DNA of 64,000 nt, from the NCBI RefSeq assembly GCF_036507355.1, contig NZ_AP027877.1. One strand, written 5' to 3'. A program made the translations under genes and the position numbers. Source of the stretch: Escherichia coli. Lineage in GTDB: Bacteria; Pseudomonadota; Gammaproteobacteria; Enterobacterales; Enterobacteriaceae. The notes beneath the pieces were generated by a model. It had not been told where the DNA came from and made no database searches. It saw nothing but the letters and a program-made list of their open reading frames with translations. This document shows, one piece after another, positions 45,884 through 64,000 of the stretch. Every line of letters starts with the position of its first letter. The first letter of the stretch is position 1.

Positions 45884-45904
45884 TCGTACAGGGTAGTACA
45901 AATA

Positions 45905-45936
45905 AAAAAGGCACGTCAGATGACGTGCCTTTTTTC
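45905..45936 (+). terminator. Intrinsic terminator downstream of aspA
   Basis: aaaaaaggcacgtca-ga-tgacgtgcctttttt: 10-bp stem with flanking A/T runs. Confidence 0.7.
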
Positions 45937-46000: not shown

Positions 46001-47302
46001 ATGCTAGTTGTAGAACTCATCATAGTTTTGCTGGCGATCTTCTTGGGCGCCAGATTGGGGGGAATAGGTATTGGTTTTGCAGGCGGATTGGGGGTGCTGG
46101 TTCTTGCCGCTATTGGCGTTAAACCCGGTAACATCCCGTTCGATGTCATTTCCATTATCATGGCGGTTATCGCCGCTATTTCTGCCATGCAGGTTGCTGG
46201 CGGTCTGGACTATCTGGTTCATCAGACAGAAAAGCTGCTGCGCCGTAACCCGAAATACATCACGATCCTCGCACCGATCGTGACCTATTTCCTGACAATC
46301 TTTGCTGGTACTGGCAACATCTCTCTGGCGACACTGCCAGTTATCGCTGAAGTTGCGAAGGAACAAGGCGTTAAACCTTGCCGTCCGCTGTCTACTGCAG
46401 TGGTATCCGCGCAGATTGCGATCACCGCATCGCCAATCTCAGCGGCAGTGGTTTACATGTCTTCCGTGATGGAAGGTCATGGCATCAGCTACCTCCATCT
46501 GCTCTCCGTGGTCATCCCGTCCACCCTGCTGGCGGTTCTGGTGATGTCCTTCCTGGTCACTATGCTGTTCAACTCCAAACTCTCTGACGATCCGATTTAT
46601 CGCAAGCGTCTGGAAGAGGGCCTGGTTGAACTGCGCGGTGAAAAGCAGATTGAAATCAAATCCGGTGCAAAAACGTCCGTCTGGCTGTTCCTGCTGGGCG
46701 TAGTTGGCGTGGTTATCTATGCAATCATCAACAGCCCAAGCATGGGTCTGGTTGAAAAACCGCTGATGAACACCACCAACGCAATCCTGATCATCATGCT
46801 CAGCGTTGCAACTCTGACCACCGTTATCTGTAAAGTCGATACCGACAACATCCTCAACTCCAGCACCTTCAAAGCAGGTATGAGCGCCTGTATTTGTATC
46901 CTGGGTGTTGCGTGGCTGGGCGATACTTTCGTTTCCAACAACATCGACTGGATCAAAGATACCGCTGGTGAAGTGATTCAGGGTCATCCGTGGCTGCTGG
47001 CCGTCATCTTCTTCTTTGCTTCTGCTCTGCTGTACTCTCAGGCTGCAACCGCAAAAGCACTGATGCCGATGGCTCTGGCACTGAACGTTTCTCCGCTGAC
47101 CGCTGTTGCTTCTTTCGCTGCGGTGTCTGGTCTGTTCATTCTGCCGACCTACCCGACGCTGGTTGCTGCGGTACAGATGGATGACACGGGTACTACCCGT
47201 ATCGGTAAATTCGTCTTCAACCATCCGTTCTTCATCCCGGGTACTCTGGGTGTTGCCCTGGCCGTTTGCTTCGGCTTCGTGCTGGGTAGCTTCATGCTGT
47301 AA
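46001..47302 (+). CDS. dcuA: Anaerobic C4-dicarboxylate transporter DcuA
   Basis: 433-aa polytopic ORF MLVVELIIVLLAIFLGARLGGIGIGFAGG... Confidence 0.95.
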   Translation: MLVVELIIVLLAIFLGARLGGIGIGFAGGLGVLVLAAIGVKPGNIPFDVISIIMAVIAAISAMQVAGGLDYLVHQTEKLLRRNPKYITILAPIVTYFLTIFAGTGNISLATLPVIAEVAKEQGVKPCRPLSTAVVSAQIAITASPISAAVVYMSSVMEGHGISYLHLLSVVIPSTLLAVLVMSFLVTMLFNSKLSDDPIYRKRLEEGLVELRGEKQIEIKSGAKTSVWLFLLGVVGVVIYAIINSPSMGLVEKPLMNTTNAILIIMLSVATLTTVICKVDTDNILNSSTFKAGMSACICILGVAWLGDTFVSNNIDWIKDTAGEVIQGHPWLLAVIFFFASALLYSQAATAKALMPMALALNVSPLTAVASFAAVSGLFILPTYPTLVAAVQMDDTGTTRIGKFVFNHPFFIPGTLGVALAVCFGFVLGSFML

Positions 47303-47756: not shown

Positions 47757-49429
47757 TCCTGCTACTTTGCAGCACTTCCGTTTTTGCCGGATTATTCGAC
47801 GCGCCGGGACGTTCACAATTTGTCCCCGCGGATCAAGCCTTTACTTTTGATTTTCAGCAAAACCAACATGACCTTAATCTGACCTGGCAGATCAAAGACG
47901 GTTACTACCTCTACCGTAAACAGATCCGCATTACGCCGGAACACGCGAAAATTGCCGACGTGCAGCTTCCGCAAGGCGTCTGGCATGAAGATGAGTTTTA
48001 CGGCAAAAGCGAGATTTACCGCGATCGGCTGACGCTTCCCGTAACCATCAACCAGGCGAGTGCGGGAGCGACGTTAACTGTCACCTACCAGGGCTGTGCT
48101 GATGCCGGTTTCTGTTATCCGCCAGAAACCAAAACCGTTCCGTTAAGCGAAGTGGTCGCCAACAACGCAGCGTCACAGCCTGTGTCTGTTTCGCAGCAAG
48201 AGCAGCACACCGCGCAATTGCCCTTTTCCGCGCTCTGGGCGTTGTTGATCGGTATTGGTATCGCCTTTACGCCATGCGTGCTGCCAATGTACCCACTGAT
48301 TTCTGGCATCGTGCTGGGTGGTAAACAGCGGCTCTCCACTGCCAGAGCATTGTTGCTGACCTTTATTTATGTGCAGGGGATGGCACTGACTTACACGGCG
48401 CTGGGTCTGGTAGTTGCCGCCGCAGGGTTACAGTTCCAGGCGGCGCTACAGCACCCATACGTGCTCATTGGCCTCGCCATCGTCTTTACCTTGCTGGCGA
48501 TGTCAATGTTTGGCTTGTTTACTCTACAACTCCCCTCCTCGCTGCAAACGCGCCTCACGCTGATGAGCAATCGCCAACAGGGCGGCTCACCCGGCGGAGT
48601 GTTTATTATGGGGGCGATTGCCGGACTGATCTGTTCACCATGCACCACCGCACCGCTTAGCGCGATTCTGCTGTATATCGCCCAAAGCGGGAACATGTGG
48701 CTGGGCGGCGGCACGCTTTATCTCTATGCGTTGGGCATGGGCCTGCCGCTGATGCTAATTACCGTCTTTGGTAACCGCTTGCTGCCGAAAAGCGGCCCGT
48801 GGATGGAACAAGTCAAAACCGCGTTTGGTTTTGTGATCCTCGCACTGCCGGTCTTCCTGCTGGAGCGAGTGATTGGTGATATATGGGGATTACGCTTGTG
48901 GTCGGCGCTGGGTGTCGCATTCTTTGGCTGGGCCTTTATCACCAGCCTACAGACCAAACGCGGCTGGATGCGCGTGGTGCAAATAATCCTGCTGGCAGCG
49001 GCATTGGTTAGCGTGCGCCCACTTCAGGATTGGGCATTTGGTGCGACGCATACCGCGCAAACTCAGACGCATCTCAACTTTACACAAATCAAAACGGTAG
49101 ATGAGTTAAATCAGGCGCTCGTTGAAGCCAAAGGCAAACCGGTGATATTAGATCTTTATGCCGACTGGTGCGTCGCCTGTAAAGAGTTTGAGAAATACAC
49201 CTTCAGCGACCCGCAGGTGCAAAAAGCGTTAGCAGACACGGTCTTACTTCAGGCCAACGTCACGGCCAACGACGCACAAGATGTGGCGCTGTTAAAGCAT
49301 CTTAATGTCCTTGGCCTACCGACAATTCTCTTTTTTGACGGACAAGGCCAGGAGCATCCACAAGCACGCGTCACGGGCTTTATGGATGCTGAAACCTTCA
49401 GCGCACATTTGCGCGATCGCCAACCGTGA
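47732..49429 (+). CDS. dsbD: Thiol:disulfide interchange protein DsbD
   Basis: ATG at 47732 ([19 protein letters not shown]..., 565 aa); C-terminal thioredoxin CxxC ([10 protein letters not shown]); overlaps the cutA 3' end by 25 nt. Confidence 0.93.
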
Positions 49430-59588: not shown

Positions 59589-59618
59589 GAACGAAGCAGT
59601 CAGGCGACTGCTTCGTTC
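59589..59618. terminator. Perfect 13-bp stem hairpin between the convergent lysU and ghoT (likely bidirectional terminator)
   Basis: gaacgaagcagtc-aggc-gactgcttcgttc. Confidence 0.5.
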
Positions 59619-61112: not shown

Positions 61113-62744
61113 ATGAGACATTCATTGCCCTACCGCATGTTACGCAAACGTCCGATGAAATTGAGTACCACAGTGATCTTAATGGTCAGCGCGGTACTGT
61201 TCTCGGTGCTATTGGTGGTGCATCTGATTTACTTCTCGCAAATCAGTGATATGACGCGAGACGGGCTAGCCAACAAGGCACTGGCAGTGGCGCGTACTCT
61301 CGCCGACTCGCCGGAAATCCGTCAGGGCTTGCAGAAAAAACCGCAGGAGAGTGGAATCCAGGCCATCGCGGAAGCCGTGCGCAAACGCAACGATCTGCTG
61401 TTTATTGTCGTTACCGATATGCAAAGTCTTCGCTATTCGCATCCTGAAGCCCAGCGTATTGGTCAGCCATTTAAAGGTGATGACATCCTTAAGGCGCTGA
61501 ATGGCGAAGAAAATGTCGCTATCAATCGCGGTTTTCTGGCGCAGGCTTTACGCGTATTTACCCCCATCTACGATGAAAATCATAAACAAATTGGCGTGGT
61601 GGCGATCGGCCTTGAGTTAAGCCGCGTGACCCAACAGATCAATGACAGTCGCTGGAGCATTATCTGGTCAGTATTATTTGGCATGCTGGTCGGACTGATT
61701 GGCACCTGCATTCTGGTTAAAGTACTGAAAAAAATCCTTTTCGGCCTGGAACCCTACGAAATCTCCACGCTGTTTGAGCAACGCCAGGCCATGTTGCAGT
61801 CTATCAAAGAAGGCGTCGTTGCCGTGGACGATCGCGGCGAGGTCACGCTGATCAACGATGCCGCACAAGAATTGCTGAATTACCGTAAGTCGCAGGACGA
61901 TGAGAAACTGTCGACGCTAAGCCACTCGTGGTCACAGGTGGTAGATGTCTCGGAAGTGTTACGCGACGGTACCCCGCGCCGCGACGAAGAGATTACGATT
62001 AAAGATCGGCTATTACTGATCAACACCGTTCCGGTGCGCAGTAATGGCGTTATCATCGGTGCCATTTCAACCTTCAGGGACAAAACTGAAGTACGTAAAC
62101 TGATGCAGCGACTCGACGGTCTGGTCAACTATGCTGATGCACTTCGTGAACGATCCCACGAATTTATGAATAAATTGCATGTGATTCTCGGATTATTGCA
62201 TCTGAAGAGTTATAAGCAGTTGGAAGATTACATTCTCAAAACAGCCAATAACTATCAGGAAGAGATTGGCTCTCTGCTGGGTAAGATCAAATCTCCGGTT
62301 ATCGCTGGTTTTTTAATCAGCAAGATTAACCGCGCGACCGATTTAGGCCATACGCTGATTTTAAACAGTGAAAGCCAGCTGCCAGACAGCGGCAGTGAGG
62401 ACCAGGTCGCGACGCTGATTACCACATTGGGAAATCTGATAGAAAACGCGCTGGAAGCATTAGGGCCGGAACCCGGAGGCGAAATTAGCGTAACATTGCA
62501 CTACCGTCACGGCTGGCTGCACTGTGAAGTTAATGATGATGGACCGGGGATCGCACCCGATAAAATCGATCACATTTTTGACAAAGGTGTCTCGACAAAA
62601 GGAAGCGAGCGAGGCGTCGGTTTAGCACTTGTCAAACAACAGGTAGAAAATCTCGGCGGCAGCATCGCCGTGGAATCGGAACCCGGGATTTTCACACAAT
62701 TTTTTGTCCAGATACCCTGGGACGGGGAGAGGTCGAACAGATGA
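61113..62744 (+). CDS. dcuS: C4-dicarboxylate sensor histidine kinase DcuS
   Basis: 543-aa ORF with two TM segments flanking a periplasmic PAS-like domain, H-box (SHEFMNKLHVI) and HATPase domain. Confidence 0.95.
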   Translation: MRHSLPYRMLRKRPMKLSTTVILMVSAVLFSVLLVVHLIYFSQISDMTRDGLANKALAVARTLADSPEIRQGLQKKPQESGIQAIAEAVRKRNDLLFIVVTDMQSLRYSHPEAQRIGQPFKGDDILKALNGEENVAINRGFLAQALRVFTPIYDENHKQIGVVAIGLELSRVTQQINDSRWSIIWSVLFGMLVGLIGTCILVKVLKKILFGLEPYEISTLFEQRQAMLQSIKEGVVAVDDRGEVTLINDAAQELLNYRKSQDDEKLSTLSHSWSQVVDVSEVLRDGTPRRDEEITIKDRLLLINTVPVRSNGVIIGAISTFRDKTEVRKLMQRLDGLVNYADALRERSHEFMNKLHVILGLLHLKSYKQLEDYILKTANNYQEEIGSLLGKIKSPVIAGFLISKINRATDLGHTLILNSESQLPDSGSEDQVATLITTLGNLIENALEALGPEPGGEISVTLHYRHGWLHCEVNDDGPGIAPDKIDHIFDKGVSTKGSERGVGLALVKQQVENLGGSIAVESEPGIFTQFFVQIPWDGERSNR

Positions 62745-63460
62745 TCAATGTATTAATTATCGATGACGACGCAATGGTCGCGGAGCTGAATCGCCGATAC
62801 GTGGCACAAATCCCGGGCTTTCAATGCTGTGGAACGGCCTCGACGCTGGAGAAAGCCAAAGAGATTATCTTCAATAGCGATACGCCTATCGACCTGATAT
62901 TGCTCGATATCTATATGCAAAAAGAGAACGGGCTCGATTTACTGCCTGTCCTGCATAACGCGCGTTGCAAAAGTGATGTGATTGTCATCTCCTCCGCAGC
63001 CGATGCGGCAACCATTAAAGATTCGCTGCATTACGGTGTCGTGGATTACCTGATCAAACCCTTCCAGGCTTCCCGCTTTGAAGAGGCGCTCACCGGCTGG
63101 CGGCAAAAGAAAATGGCGCTGGAAAAACATCAGTATTATGACCAGGCCGAGCTTGATCAGCTAATCCACGGCAGCAGCTCCAACGAGCAGGATCCTCGTC
63201 GCTTGCCAAAAGGCTTAACGCCGCAGACGTTACGCACACTGTGCCAGTGGATTGACGCGCATCAGGACTATGAGTTTTCAACCGACGAGCTAGCCAACGA
63301 GGTTAACATTTCGCGTGTTTCCTGCCGTAAATACCTCATCTGGCTGGTCAACTGCCACATCTTGTTCACCAGTATCCATTATGGCGTCACGGGGCGTCCG
63401 GTTTACCGTTACCGTATTCAGGCAGAACACTACTCACTGCTGAAACAATATTGCCAATAA
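62741..63460 (+). CDS. dcuR: Response regulator DcuR
   Basis: 239-aa ORF MINVLIIDDDAMVAELNRRYVAQIPGF... (receiver domain plus C-terminal HTH); ATG overlaps the dcuS stop (ATGA). Confidence 0.95.
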   Translation: MINVLIIDDDAMVAELNRRYVAQIPGFQCCGTASTLEKAKEIIFNSDTPIDLILLDIYMQKENGLDLLPVLHNARCKSDVIVISSAADAATIKDSLHYGVVDYLIKPFQASRFEEALTGWRQKKMALEKHQYYDQAELDQLIHGSSSNEQDPRRLPKGLTPQTLRTLCQWIDAHQDYEFSTDELANEVNISRVSCRKYLIWLVNCHILFTSIHYGVTGRPVYRYRIQAEHYSLLKQYCQ

Positions 63461-63512
63461 CGGATCGCTGGTTATCTGTAAGTAATAATTATTACCGTAA
63501 TGCAAAATACCC

Positions 63513-63553
63513 CTGGCACAAGTTACATCGTTAATCAGTAAAACTTGTGCCAG
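63513..63553. other. Perfect 12-bp inverted repeat downstream of dcuR in an AT-rich spacer
   Basis: ctggcacaagtt-(17 nt)-aacttgtgccag; no U-tract, so more likely a protein-binding palindrome than a terminator. Confidence 0.3.
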
Positions 63554-64000
63554 ATCAAATATAATTATCCCTCCATCATCGTTAAAAATTAATATCTCTT
63601 CAGATGAACGGTGTTTTTAATTTCAAAACGCTAACAAAAGTTAATTAACTATTATGTCACCCGCATTATGTGTATTTTTACCCACAAATGGGTAAATCAG
63701 ATTAATCTATAAACCTAATGATATCTGCCCTGAGAACAAAAAACAGACCGATAAATATCAATAAGATAACAGCAAACAAAACATTAACATCTGCGCAGTA
63801 CAAACTTTAAACCCATCGCCAGAGAGTTTTTCTCTCTGAAAAAGCCGCTTATCACAGTGCATAAATTTGCCGCTGCTTTAATCAGCCAATATTCACTGTG
63901 AGGTATTTGCTAAAGCCGGTAACGACCAAACGGATATTTAGTCAGGCTCTGAAAACAGTTCATACAAAACAGAACGTGACTGTGATCTATTCAGCAAAAA

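What the first reader, a model, noticed from the sequence alone, without database searches (positions are those of the whole stretch)
63513..63553. Perfect 12-bp inverted repeat downstream of dcuR
ctggcacaagtt and aacttgtgccag flank a 17-nt AT-rich loop about 50 bp after the dcuR stop. There is no U-tract, so it does not look like an intrinsic terminator. Its position in the regulatory spacer leading to the next gene (probably dcuB, beyond the window) suggests a binding site for a dimeric regulator.
Basis: inference. Interest (0 to 1): 0.2.

Follow-up and report, generated by a model that had tools for sequence, protein, structure and literature searches.

The report
FNR site inside dcuR 3' hairpin
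The perfect inverted repeat after dcuR is real, but only its right arm belongs to a regulator site (a published FNR box for dcuB), and the repeat as a whole is most likely an ordinary RNA hairpin that caps the Rho-terminated dcuSR message.

Summary
CTGGCACAAGTT (63513-63524) and AACTTGTGCCAG (63542-63553) are perfectly complementary around a 17-nt loop, 52 nt after the dcuR stop codon, in E. coli DNA. dcuB starts 31 nt past the window end.

A dimeric regulator does bind here, but not to the repeat as such. Nine bases of the right arm plus the next five form TTGTGCCAGATCAA (63545-63558). This is the reverse complement of the FNR site that Myers et al. 2013 list under an FNR ChIP-seq peak, at -132.5 from the dcuB start site. 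The FNR dyad axis lies 18 bp from the repeat's axis.

The FNR box is conserved in Citrobacter, Salmonella and Trabulsiella. The left arm exists only in Escherichia and C. koseri and scores as a non-site for FNR.

The whole repeat fits the known class of U-tract-less stem-loops that protect Rho-terminated mRNAs. The hairpin is stable (-18.9 kcal/mol) and is followed by a C-rich, G-poor tract. A published bicyclomycin-sensitive Rho termination region has its best coordinate 13 nt after the stem. All four natural arm substitutions keep G.U pairing on the dcuSR sense strand only.

The RNA role is inferred: no 3' end has been mapped and no compensatory changes were seen. The finding is ordinary and of low interest.

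The parts
62741..63460 (+). dcuR coding sequence (stop codon 63458-63460), last gene of the dcuSR operon
   Evidence: ORF list; RefSeq annotation of an identical O157:H7 locus
63513..63524 (+). Left arm CTGGCACAAGTT. It is the 5' half of the RNA stem, is found only in Escherichia and C. koseri, and is not an FNR site.
   Evidence: FNR PWM scores for all windows overlapping it are -7 or lower.
63525..63541 (+). 17-nt AT-rich loop. It is variable within Escherichia (7 of 17 columns vary) and is the target of an IS1 insertion in strain 14EC007.
63542..63553 (+). Right arm AACTTGTGCCAG. It is the 3' half of the RNA stem, and 9 of its 12 nt (63545-63553) are the left half-site and spacer of the FNR box.
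63545..63558 (.). FNR binding site TTGTGCCAGATCAA. It is the reverse complement of TTGATCTGGCACAA in Myers et al. 2013, Table S6. It lies under an FNR ChIP-seq peak at -132.5 from the dcuB transcription start.
   Evidence: My PWM gives 11.7 bits, rank 3 of 63,987 windows. TTGnG....ATCAA is invariant across four genera.
63554..63611 (+). C-rich, G-poor tract directly after the stem (C 12-15 against G 3-7 in 58 nt in all eight Escherichia lineages). From 63571 on, the sequence varies but the composition is kept. Candidate Rho loading (rut) region.
   Evidence: Dar & Sorek 2018 place rut sites immediately downstream of such stem-loops. Inference.
63566..63566 (+). Best coordinate of a published Rho termination region (MG1655 4349209, minus strand; Rho score 3.32, p 4e-10). 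It lies 13 nt after the stem. It was derived from 800-nt windows, so its resolution is low.
   Evidence: Adams et al. 2021, Supplementary file 2; coordinate mapping
63612..63655 (.). Almost invariant block TGTTTTTAATTTCAAAACGCTAACAAAAGTTAATTAAsTATTAT. It matches the position of the published DcuR footprint on the dcuB promoter; the footprint position is recalled from Janausch 2004 and Abo-Amer 2004, which I could not read here.
   Evidence: conservation; my knowledge for the footprint; arithmetic with the TSS
63673..63684 (+). -10 element TATTTT (63673-63678) and transcription start (about 63684) of the upstream, DcuR-responsive dcuB promoter. The hairpin lies upstream of this start and so is not part of the dcuB mRNA.
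   Evidence: The -132.5 position in Myers Table 1; conserved TGTGTATTTTTA; a gut-adaptive A->T change at -354 from the dcuB ATG turns TATTTT into TATTAT

Best explanation
The repeat is two overlapping things.

(1) DNA level, shown. The right arm is most of a 14-bp FNR box (63545-63558) that belongs to the dcuB regulatory region. It lies about 132 bp upstream of the DcuR-dependent dcuB promoter.

(2) RNA level, inferred. On the dcuSR sense strand the two arms form a 12-bp stem-loop 52 nt after the dcuR stop codon. dcuSR transcription runs past it. Rho loads on the C-rich tract that follows and terminates further downstream. 3'-5' exonucleases then trim the RNA back to the stem, which becomes the stable 3' end of the dcuSR mRNA.

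The left arm is a lineage-specific addition (Escherichia and C. koseri). It became complementary to a sequence that was already held constant by FNR.
For: FNR part:
- Myers et al. 2013, Table S6, lists TTGATCTGGCACAA near dcuB at an FNR ChIP-seq peak. Table 1 puts it at -132.5 and classes dcuB-fumB as directly FNR-activated.
- That sequence is the reverse complement of 63545-63558.
- A PWM I built from the 62 other ChIP-bound sites scores it at 11.7 bits. It is the only hit in the dcuR-dcuB spacer above 3.5 bits.
- The box is conserved in Citrobacter, Salmonella and Trabulsiella.

RNA part:
- The hairpin is stable: -18.9 kcal/mol, z -7.1.
- There is no U-tract.
- A C>G tract follows directly.
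- A bicyclomycin-sensitive Rho termination region on the dcuSR strand has its best coordinate 13 nt after the stem.
- Dar & Sorek 2018 describe this architecture for nearly all Rho-dependent E. coli transcripts.
- All three perfect repeats of at least 12 bp in the window lie 14-52 nt after a stop codon.
- Within Escherichia both arms are nearly invariant (1 of 24 columns varies), while the loop (7 of 17) and the 5' flank (19 of 52) vary.
- The four natural arm substitutions (C63517T twice, C63513T, C/T at 63544) all give G.U wobbles on the + strand. The + strand hairpins stay at -14 to -19 kcal/mol, while the - strand versions fall to between -7 and -14.
Against: - No Term-seq 3' end is listed at this position in the Adams et al. 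tables. dcuSR is weakly expressed in those aerobic conditions, so this is uninformative rather than negative.
- The Rho coordinate comes from 800-nt windows and is imprecise.
- No pair shows a compensatory double change: 8 of 12 pairs never vary.
- Four of four wobble-compatible transitions has only p of about 0.06 under a transitions-only null.
- 13.6% of all 12-nt windows in this spacer are equally invariant in Escherichia.
- A 17-nt loop is larger than is usual for terminator-like stem-loops.
- Citrobacter, Salmonella and Trabulsiella have no equivalent hairpin, so the function, if any, is dispensable.
- FNR acting from -132.5 is itself an unusual distance.
Confidence: 0.55

Rival explanations
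1. Only the FNR box is functional. The left arm arose by chance or by a template-switch (quasi-palindrome) mutation that copied the complement of the FNR-constrained right arm. The hairpin has no role of its own.
For: - The left arm is absent from most genera that keep dcuR-dcuB synteny and the FNR box.
- There is no compensatory covariation.
- Equally invariant 12-nt windows are common in this spacer, at 13.6%.
- A genome of this size is expected to hold a few such repeats by chance (extrapolated).
- Compared with C. amalonaticus and Trabulsiella (GGTTAAGGTT), the Escherichia and C. koseri arm (GGCACAAGTT) differs by a cluster of adjacent changes, as a single templated event would give (inference).
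- A strain with IS1 inserted in the loop exists.
Against: - The position and anatomy match the protective stem-loop class point by point: after a stop codon, no U-tract, C>G tract, Rho region.
- The arms are kept across all Escherichia species sampled while the loop and flanks diverge.
- All arm changes are wobble-compatible on the sense strand.
Confidence: 0.28
2. The hairpin acts during transcription rather than afterwards. It would be a pause or weak termination signal that helps Rho stop RNA polymerase before it runs into the FNR and DcuR sites and the dcuB promoter. In that role it insulates dcuB from dcuSR read-through.
For: - The Rho termination region is centred next to the hairpin.
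- No other terminator-like structure lies between dcuR and dcuB.
- Dar & Sorek note that such structures could also have direct roles in termination.
Against: - Without a U-tract, hairpins terminate E. coli RNA polymerase poorly (established knowledge).
- Dar & Sorek's exonuclease-mutant data favour termination downstream followed by trimming.
- Rho would have to load upstream of the hairpin, where C and G are balanced at 10 against 9.
Confidence: 0.1
3. One reading: the whole 12-N17-12 palindrome is the operator of a dimeric or tetrameric DNA-binding regulator other than FNR.
For: - The dyad symmetry is perfect, in a regulatory spacer.
- Both arms are invariant in Escherichia.
Against: - The left arm is not conserved where the dcuB regulatory blocks (FNR box, DcuR block, -10 element) are conserved.
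- A 29-bp centre-to-centre spacing with a freely varying 17-bp spacer is atypical for dimer operators (inference).
- Natural one-arm substitutions break the DNA symmetry but keep RNA pairing.
- Myers et al. count a single FNR site here, and the left arm scores -7 bits or lower.
- The DcuR footprint lies 60-100 bp downstream (my knowledge).
Confidence: 0.05
4. The hairpin functions on the opposite strand, at the start or end of an antisense RNA.
For: - A weak sigma-70-like match lies on the minus strand (TTAACG-16-TATATT, 63585-63558), so transcription would start near the hairpin.
- The minus-strand fold of the window sequence is equally stable, at -19.3 kcal/mol.
Against: - The -35 region lies in the part of the spacer that varies between Escherichia lineages.
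- Natural variants weaken the minus-strand hairpin to as little as -7.3 kcal/mol, z about 0.
- No plus-strand (K-12 coordinates) 3' end or Rho region is listed there.
Confidence: 0.02

Closest known systems
FNR binding site of the dcuB-fumB regulatory region (Myers et al. 2013, PLoS Genet, Tables 1 and S6; earlier FNR dependence in Golby et al. 1998)
   Same: The sequence is identical: TTGATCTGGCACAA is the reverse complement of 63545-63558. It lies under an FNR ChIP-seq peak, dcuB is FNR-activated, and the site is a 14-bp TTGAT-N4-ATCAA-type dyad.
   Different: It covers only 9 nt of the right arm and 5 nt outside the repeat.
Protective 3' stem-loops of Rho-dependent E. coli transcripts (Dar & Sorek 2018, NAR; hypothesis of Peters et al. 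2012)
   Same: It is a stable stem-loop shortly after the stop codon on the sense strand. It has no U-rich tail, C>G sequence follows immediately downstream, and bicyclomycin-sensitive termination occurs in the same region.
   Different: The 3' end has not been mapped here, and exonuclease dependence is untested. The 17-nt loop is larger than usual. Half of the stem doubles as a transcription-factor site for the next gene.
Intrinsic (Rho-independent) terminators
   Same: It is a stem-loop downstream of an operon with a comparable folding energy.
   Different: It has no U-tract and no upstream A-tract. The stem is 50% GC rather than GC-rich. The loop is 17 nt against the usual 3-8 nt.
REP/BIME extragenic palindromes
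   Same: It is an extragenic palindrome at a gene's 3' end that could block exonucleases.
   Different: It is single-copy in every E. coli genome searched and has no REP consensus.

Membership tests
FNR (CRP/FNR-family) binding site | 14-bp dyad matching TTGAT-N4-ATCAA or an FNR weight matrix | tested here: met
   TTGTG-CCAG-ATCAA matches the consensus at 8 of 10 positions. A PWM built from 62 other ChIP-bound sites gives 11.7 bits, rank 3 of 63,987 windows, at the low end of the training sites (minimum 11.8). The PatSer score in Myers Table S6 is 12.3, just above their threshold.
FNR (CRP/FNR-family) binding site | FNR occupancy in vivo and FNR-dependent expression of the adjacent operon | tested here: met
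   This rests on a literature look-up, not a new experiment. Myers 2013 report an FNR ChIP-seq peak at dcuB with the site marked '+' at the peak, and class dcuB-fumB as directly activated.
   The FNR axis is at 63551/63552 and the repeat axis is at 63533. All windows overlapping the left arm score -7 bits or lower. Myers et al. count one site.
FNR (CRP/FNR-family) binding site | Conservation of the half-sites in related genera that keep the target gene | tested here: met
   TTGnG....ATCAA is invariant in 24 dcuR-dcuB spacers from Escherichia, Citrobacter, Salmonella and Trabulsiella.
Protective 3' stem-loop of a Rho-terminated mRNA | Energetically stable stem-loop on the sense strand downstream of the last stop codon | tested here: met
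   The stem is 12 bp, folds at -18.9 kcal/mol with z -7.1, and starts 52 nt after the dcuR stop codon. It is kept at -14 to -19 kcal/mol in all Escherichia variants.
Protective 3' stem-loop of a Rho-terminated mRNA | No U-rich tract after the stem; cytosine over guanosine downstream (rut) | tested here: met
   The tail is AUCAAAUAUAAUUAUCC. C is 12-15 against G 3-7 in the next 58 nt in eight Escherichia lineages.
Protective 3' stem-loop of a Rho-terminated mRNA | Read-through when Rho is inhibited | tested here: met
   This rests on a literature table. Adams 2021, Supp. file 2, lists position 4349209 (-), with reads 90/44 without and 309/502 with bicyclomycin, Rho score 3.32, p 4e-10. The resolution is low (800-nt windows).
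Protective 3' stem-loop of a Rho-terminated mRNA | Steady-state RNA 3' end mapped immediately after the stem | tested here: inconclusive
   No Term-seq 3' end near 43492xx appears in Adams Supp. files 1 and 3, which cover aerobic LB and M63. The Dar & Sorek tables are not held.
Protective 3' stem-loop of a Rho-terminated mRNA | Trimming by PNPase or RNase II down to the stem | not testable with these tools
   This needs RNA-seq of pnp and rnb mutants at this locus.
Intrinsic terminator | U-tract of about 7-8 nt directly after a GC-rich stem with a short loop | tested here: not met
   The terminator scan found none in 63300-64000. The tail has 2 U in its first 8 nt, the loop is 17 nt, and the stem is 50% GC.
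Palindromic operator of a dimeric regulator (whole repeat) | Both arms conserved together wherever the regulated promoter is conserved | tested here: not met
   The right arm is conserved in four genera. The left arm is present only in Escherichia and, in part, C. koseri.
REP/BIME or other repeated palindromic element | Many copies per genome | tested here: not met
   The median is one place per genome in 5,414 E. coli genomes with word-11 blastn. The only window matches to the arm are the two arms themselves.
Known structured RNA family (Rfam) | Covariance-model hit at or near the gathering score | tested here: not met
   The best overlapping hit is mir-BHRF1-2 at 15.8 bits against a gathering score of 87, E 9.7.

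The most novel reading that the evidence does not exclude
The overlap may be functional rather than incidental. One 9-nt stretch would serve both as an FNR half-site in DNA and as the 3' strand of the dcuSR mRNA end-hairpin. Under anaerobiosis, FNR bound there would also act as a roadblock or insulator for polymerases reading out of dcuSR. That would couple formation of the sensor-regulator mRNA's 3' end to the oxygen status that controls its target gene dcuB.
Probability: 0.08. Interest if true: 0.45.

Novelty: new member of a known kind. Interest (0 to 1): 0.15.

Why it matters
The finding matters little beyond annotation. It corrects a tempting misreading, namely that a perfect palindrome must be an operator. 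It places the published FNR site of dcuB on the sequence. It also proposes where the dcuSR mRNA ends.

If the RNA role is confirmed, this would be a tidy example of a transcription-factor site being reused as one strand of the neighbouring operon's 3' stem-loop. It would also show how quickly such stem-loops arise and are lost between enterobacterial genera.

Tried and rejected
- Rfam scan of 63300-64000 at E up to 10 gave only noise.
- The simple terminator and promoter scan found no terminator and only a weak minus-strand promoter match, whose -35 region is not conserved.
- I could not read the primary dcuB promoter papers (Golby 1998, Abo-Amer 2004, Goh 2005, Golby 1999); they are not held. 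The DcuR footprint positions therefore rest on my memory plus conservation.
- No Term-seq or operon-architecture supplements were held for Dar & Sorek 2018, Conway 2014 or the 3'-UTR valves paper.
- The metagenome scan with the right-flank 19-mer returned only nine Escherichia loci and little new variation.
- Covariation counting on the hairpin found no double-sided changes, so it neither supports nor refutes the structure.
- Fur as the binder of the adjacent AT-rich palindrome was rejected: dcuB-fumB was unaffected by Fur in Salmonella.
- A NarL heptamer TACCCCT at 63508-63514 is not conserved even within Escherichia.
- A sigma-54-like TGGCAC in the arms lacks the -12 GC element (reading).
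- A second FNR dimer on the left arm was rejected by the PWM.
- The 13-codon ORF over the left arm was rejected as coding: it has no Shine-Dalgarno sequence and its substitutions are almost all non-synonymous.
- Identity bands from BLAST against 5,400 genomes could not resolve arm-specific variants, so I sampled seven divergent strains instead.

Full report
**Where the window comes from.** The window is Escherichia coli DNA. It is 100% identical over this stretch to O157:H7 strain TR01 and 96.7-99% identical to essentially all other complete E. coli genomes. The local genes are dcuS (61113-62744), dcuR (62741-63460) and then dcuB, whose ATG falls about 31 nt beyond the window end. In K-12 MG1655 (NC_000913.3) the repeat lies at 4349262-4349222 on the minus strand. 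Its arms are identical to the window's, and its loop differs at two positions.

**Observation.** The inverted repeat is exactly as described. The arms are CTGGCACAAGTT (63513-63524) and AACTTGTGCCAG (63542-63553), 12 of 12 complementary, with a 17-nt loop, starting 52 nt after the dcuR stop codon. No U-tract follows.
- Perfect repeats of at least 12 bp with loops of 3-30 nt occur at three places in the window, against 0.075 expected from dinucleotide shuffles.
- The other two also follow stop codons. One is a canonical A-stem-T terminator at 45904-45935. The other is a 13-bp U-less hairpin at 59589-59618, after lysU.
- As RNA the element folds at -18.9 kcal/mol with z = -7.1.
- It is single-copy and matches no Rfam family.

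**What the right arm is.** I aligned 24 dcuR-dcuB spacers from Escherichia, Citrobacter, Salmonella and Trabulsiella. The alignment shows a few sharply conserved blocks, and one is AAnTTGyGyyAGATCAAAtAT (63542-63562). Inside it, TTGTG-CCAG-ATCAA (63545-63558) is an FNR-type dyad.
- Myers et al. 2013 (PMC3688515) list exactly its reverse complement, TTGATCTGGCACAA. It is the predicted FNR site next to dcuB and coincides with an FNR ChIP-seq peak (Table S6).
- Their Table 1 places the site at -132.5 from the dcuB start and classes dcuB-fumB as directly FNR-activated, with a single site.
- Their coordinate (4347240, older numbering) maps onto the centre of the site in current numbering.
- A weight matrix I built from the other 62 ChIP-bound sites in that table scores 63545-63558 at 11.7 bits. 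That is third best of 63,987 windows and the only hit above 3.5 bits in the spacer. Every window overlapping the left arm scores -7 bits or lower.

A dimeric regulator therefore does bind here. It uses 9 nt of the right arm plus 5 nt outside the repeat, and its symmetry axis is 18 bp from the repeat's axis.

**The rest of the spacer fits the known dcuB promoter.**
- The -132.5 position puts the transcription start at about 63684.
- Just upstream is the conserved TGTGTATTTTTA, with a TATTTT -10 element at 63673-63678.
- A gut-adaptive A->T mutation at -354 from the dcuB ATG (PMC5094792) changes that hexamer to TATTAT.
- The almost invariant AT-rich block at 63612-63655 is where I recall the DcuR footprints of Janausch 2004 and Abo-Amer 2004 to lie. 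Those papers could not be read here.
- The hairpin is upstream of this start, so it is not part of the dcuB mRNA.

**What the left arm is.**
- The left arm is present in all eight Escherichia lineages examined: E. coli, E. albertii, E. whittamii and cryptic-clade genomes. In C. koseri it is present as a 10-bp version with one G.U pair.
- It is absent in C. amalonaticus, the C. freundii group, S. diarizonae and Trabulsiella, although these keep the right arm and FNR box. RNA folds of those regions are no better than shuffles.
- Within Escherichia 1 of 24 arm columns varies, against 7 of 17 loop columns and 19 of 52 columns in the 5' flank. However, 13.6% of all 12-nt windows in the spacer are equally invariant, so this is only moderate evidence of constraint.

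**Why an RNA reading is favoured.** The element lies on the sense strand of dcuSR, shortly after the last stop codon, and lacks a U-tract. The tract that follows directly is C-rich and G-poor in every Escherichia lineage (C 12-15, G 3-7 in 58 nt). From 63571 on, the sequence of that tract varies freely while its composition is kept.
- Adams et al. 2021 (PMC7815308, Supplementary file 2) list a Rho termination region on this strand with best coordinate 4349209, which is window 63566, 13 nt after the stem.
- Downstream reads there rise from 44 to 502 with bicyclomycin (Rho score 3.32, p 4e-10). That coordinate comes from 800-nt windows and is approximate.
- Dar & Sorek 2018 (PMC6061677) showed that nearly all Rho-dependent E. 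coli transcripts end, at steady state, just after a stable stem-loop without a U-tract. Rut-like C>G sequence lies immediately downstream, and PNPase and RNase II trim the RNA back to the stem. The dcuR hairpin matches this description feature by feature.

**Natural variation in the arms.**
- Typical O157:H7 strains (for example 86-24) and an E. albertii-like metagenome contig carry C63517T.
- Strain 8_140198 also carries C63513T.
- E. albertii and C. koseri have T where E. coli has C at 63544.
- All four events are C/T differences on the plus strand. They give G.U wobbles in sense-strand RNA, where the hairpin stays at -14 to -19 kcal/mol. In antisense RNA they give A.C mismatches, and that hairpin drops to between -7 and -14 kcal/mol, with z near 0 in the worst case.
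- This favours the sense-strand RNA over both a DNA operator and an antisense RNA. It is weak statistically, at about p = 0.06. Formal counting finds no compensatory double changes.

**Limits.**
- No RNA 3' end has been mapped at the stem. The available Term-seq tables are from aerobic cultures in which dcuSR is poorly expressed.
- The 17-nt loop is large for this class.
- Several genera lack the hairpin altogether.
- A strain with IS1 inserted in the loop exists.
- A neutral origin therefore remains a serious rival. One route would be a template-switch event that copied the complement of the FNR-constrained arm. This is suggested by the cluster of adjacent differences between GGTTAAGGTT and GGCACAAGTT.

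**Verdict.** The regulator site is real and already published, but it is an FNR box offset from the palindrome, not the palindrome itself. The palindrome as a whole is best explained as an unremarkable, lineage-specific 3' stem-loop of the Rho-terminated dcuSR mRNA, built onto the FNR box. That part is inferred. Novelty is low: an unannotated member of a known class overlapping a known site.

Noticed in passing
window 63811-63838: There is a second hairpin, CAGAGAG-N5-CTCTCTG (63820-63838), preceded by invariant CCCATCGCC. It lies in the long dcuB leader transcribed from the upstream promoter. Across 24 sequences from four genera, 92% of cells pair and 4 of 7 pairs show compensatory double changes. 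None of 500 shuffles reaches its covariation score. It has no Rfam match, and its function is unknown.
   Followed up: partly
window 63471-63507: A block just upstream of the hairpin is conserved across genera: GTTAT, then the perfect 14-bp palindrome GTAATAATTATTAC (63482-63495), then TAATGMAAAAT. It is not an FNR site (0.6 bits). dcuB-fumB is reported as Fur-independent in Salmonella. The binder is unknown.
   Followed up: partly
L102 1734-2500 (E. coli-labelled strain 14EC007, NZ_CP024131.1); equivalent to window 63528-63536: An IS1A element is inserted inside the hairpin loop, with a 9-bp target duplication (TGTTCATCG). It separates the arms by about 0.77 kb while leaving the FNR box next to dcuB. 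This is a natural hairpin knock-out. The flanking sequence looks E. albertii-like.
   Followed up: partly
window 63500-63541: A 13-codon ORF (MQNTPGTSYIVNQ*) spans the left arm and loop and stops just before the right arm. Its length is kept in all Escherichia. It has no Shine-Dalgarno sequence and its substitutions are almost all non-synonymous, so it is probably not coding.
   Followed up: partly
window 59589-59618: A perfect 13-bp hairpin (GAACGAAGCAGTC/GACTGCTTCGTTC) lies 14 nt after the lysU stop codon and also lacks a U-tract. Adams 2021 lists a strong Rho termination region further along the same strand (4352446, score 11). It looks like another instance of the same class.
   Followed up: no
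window 63672-63693 and about 63908 (positions -359, -354, -338 and -123 from the dcuB ATG): Published mouse-gut adaptive mutations cluster at the upstream dcuB promoter. They are IS2 and IS5 insertions and an A->T change that improves the -10 hexamer (TATTTT to TATTAT). None touches the hairpin or the FNR box.
   Followed up: partly
window 63461-63640: The window's version of this segment is rare among E. coli: only 7 of 5,415 records are at least 99% identical. It differs from typical O157:H7 at five clustered positions, including the arm base 63517, although the best match is an O157:H7 strain. Local recombination or an atypical lineage may be the cause.
   Followed up: no
window 47847-47860: The best FNR matrix hit in the whole window is TTGATTTTCAGCAA (14.1 bits). 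It lies about 550 bp downstream of the 433-aa ORF 46001-47302, which I take to be dcuA from its length and position. I did not examine it.
   Followed up: no
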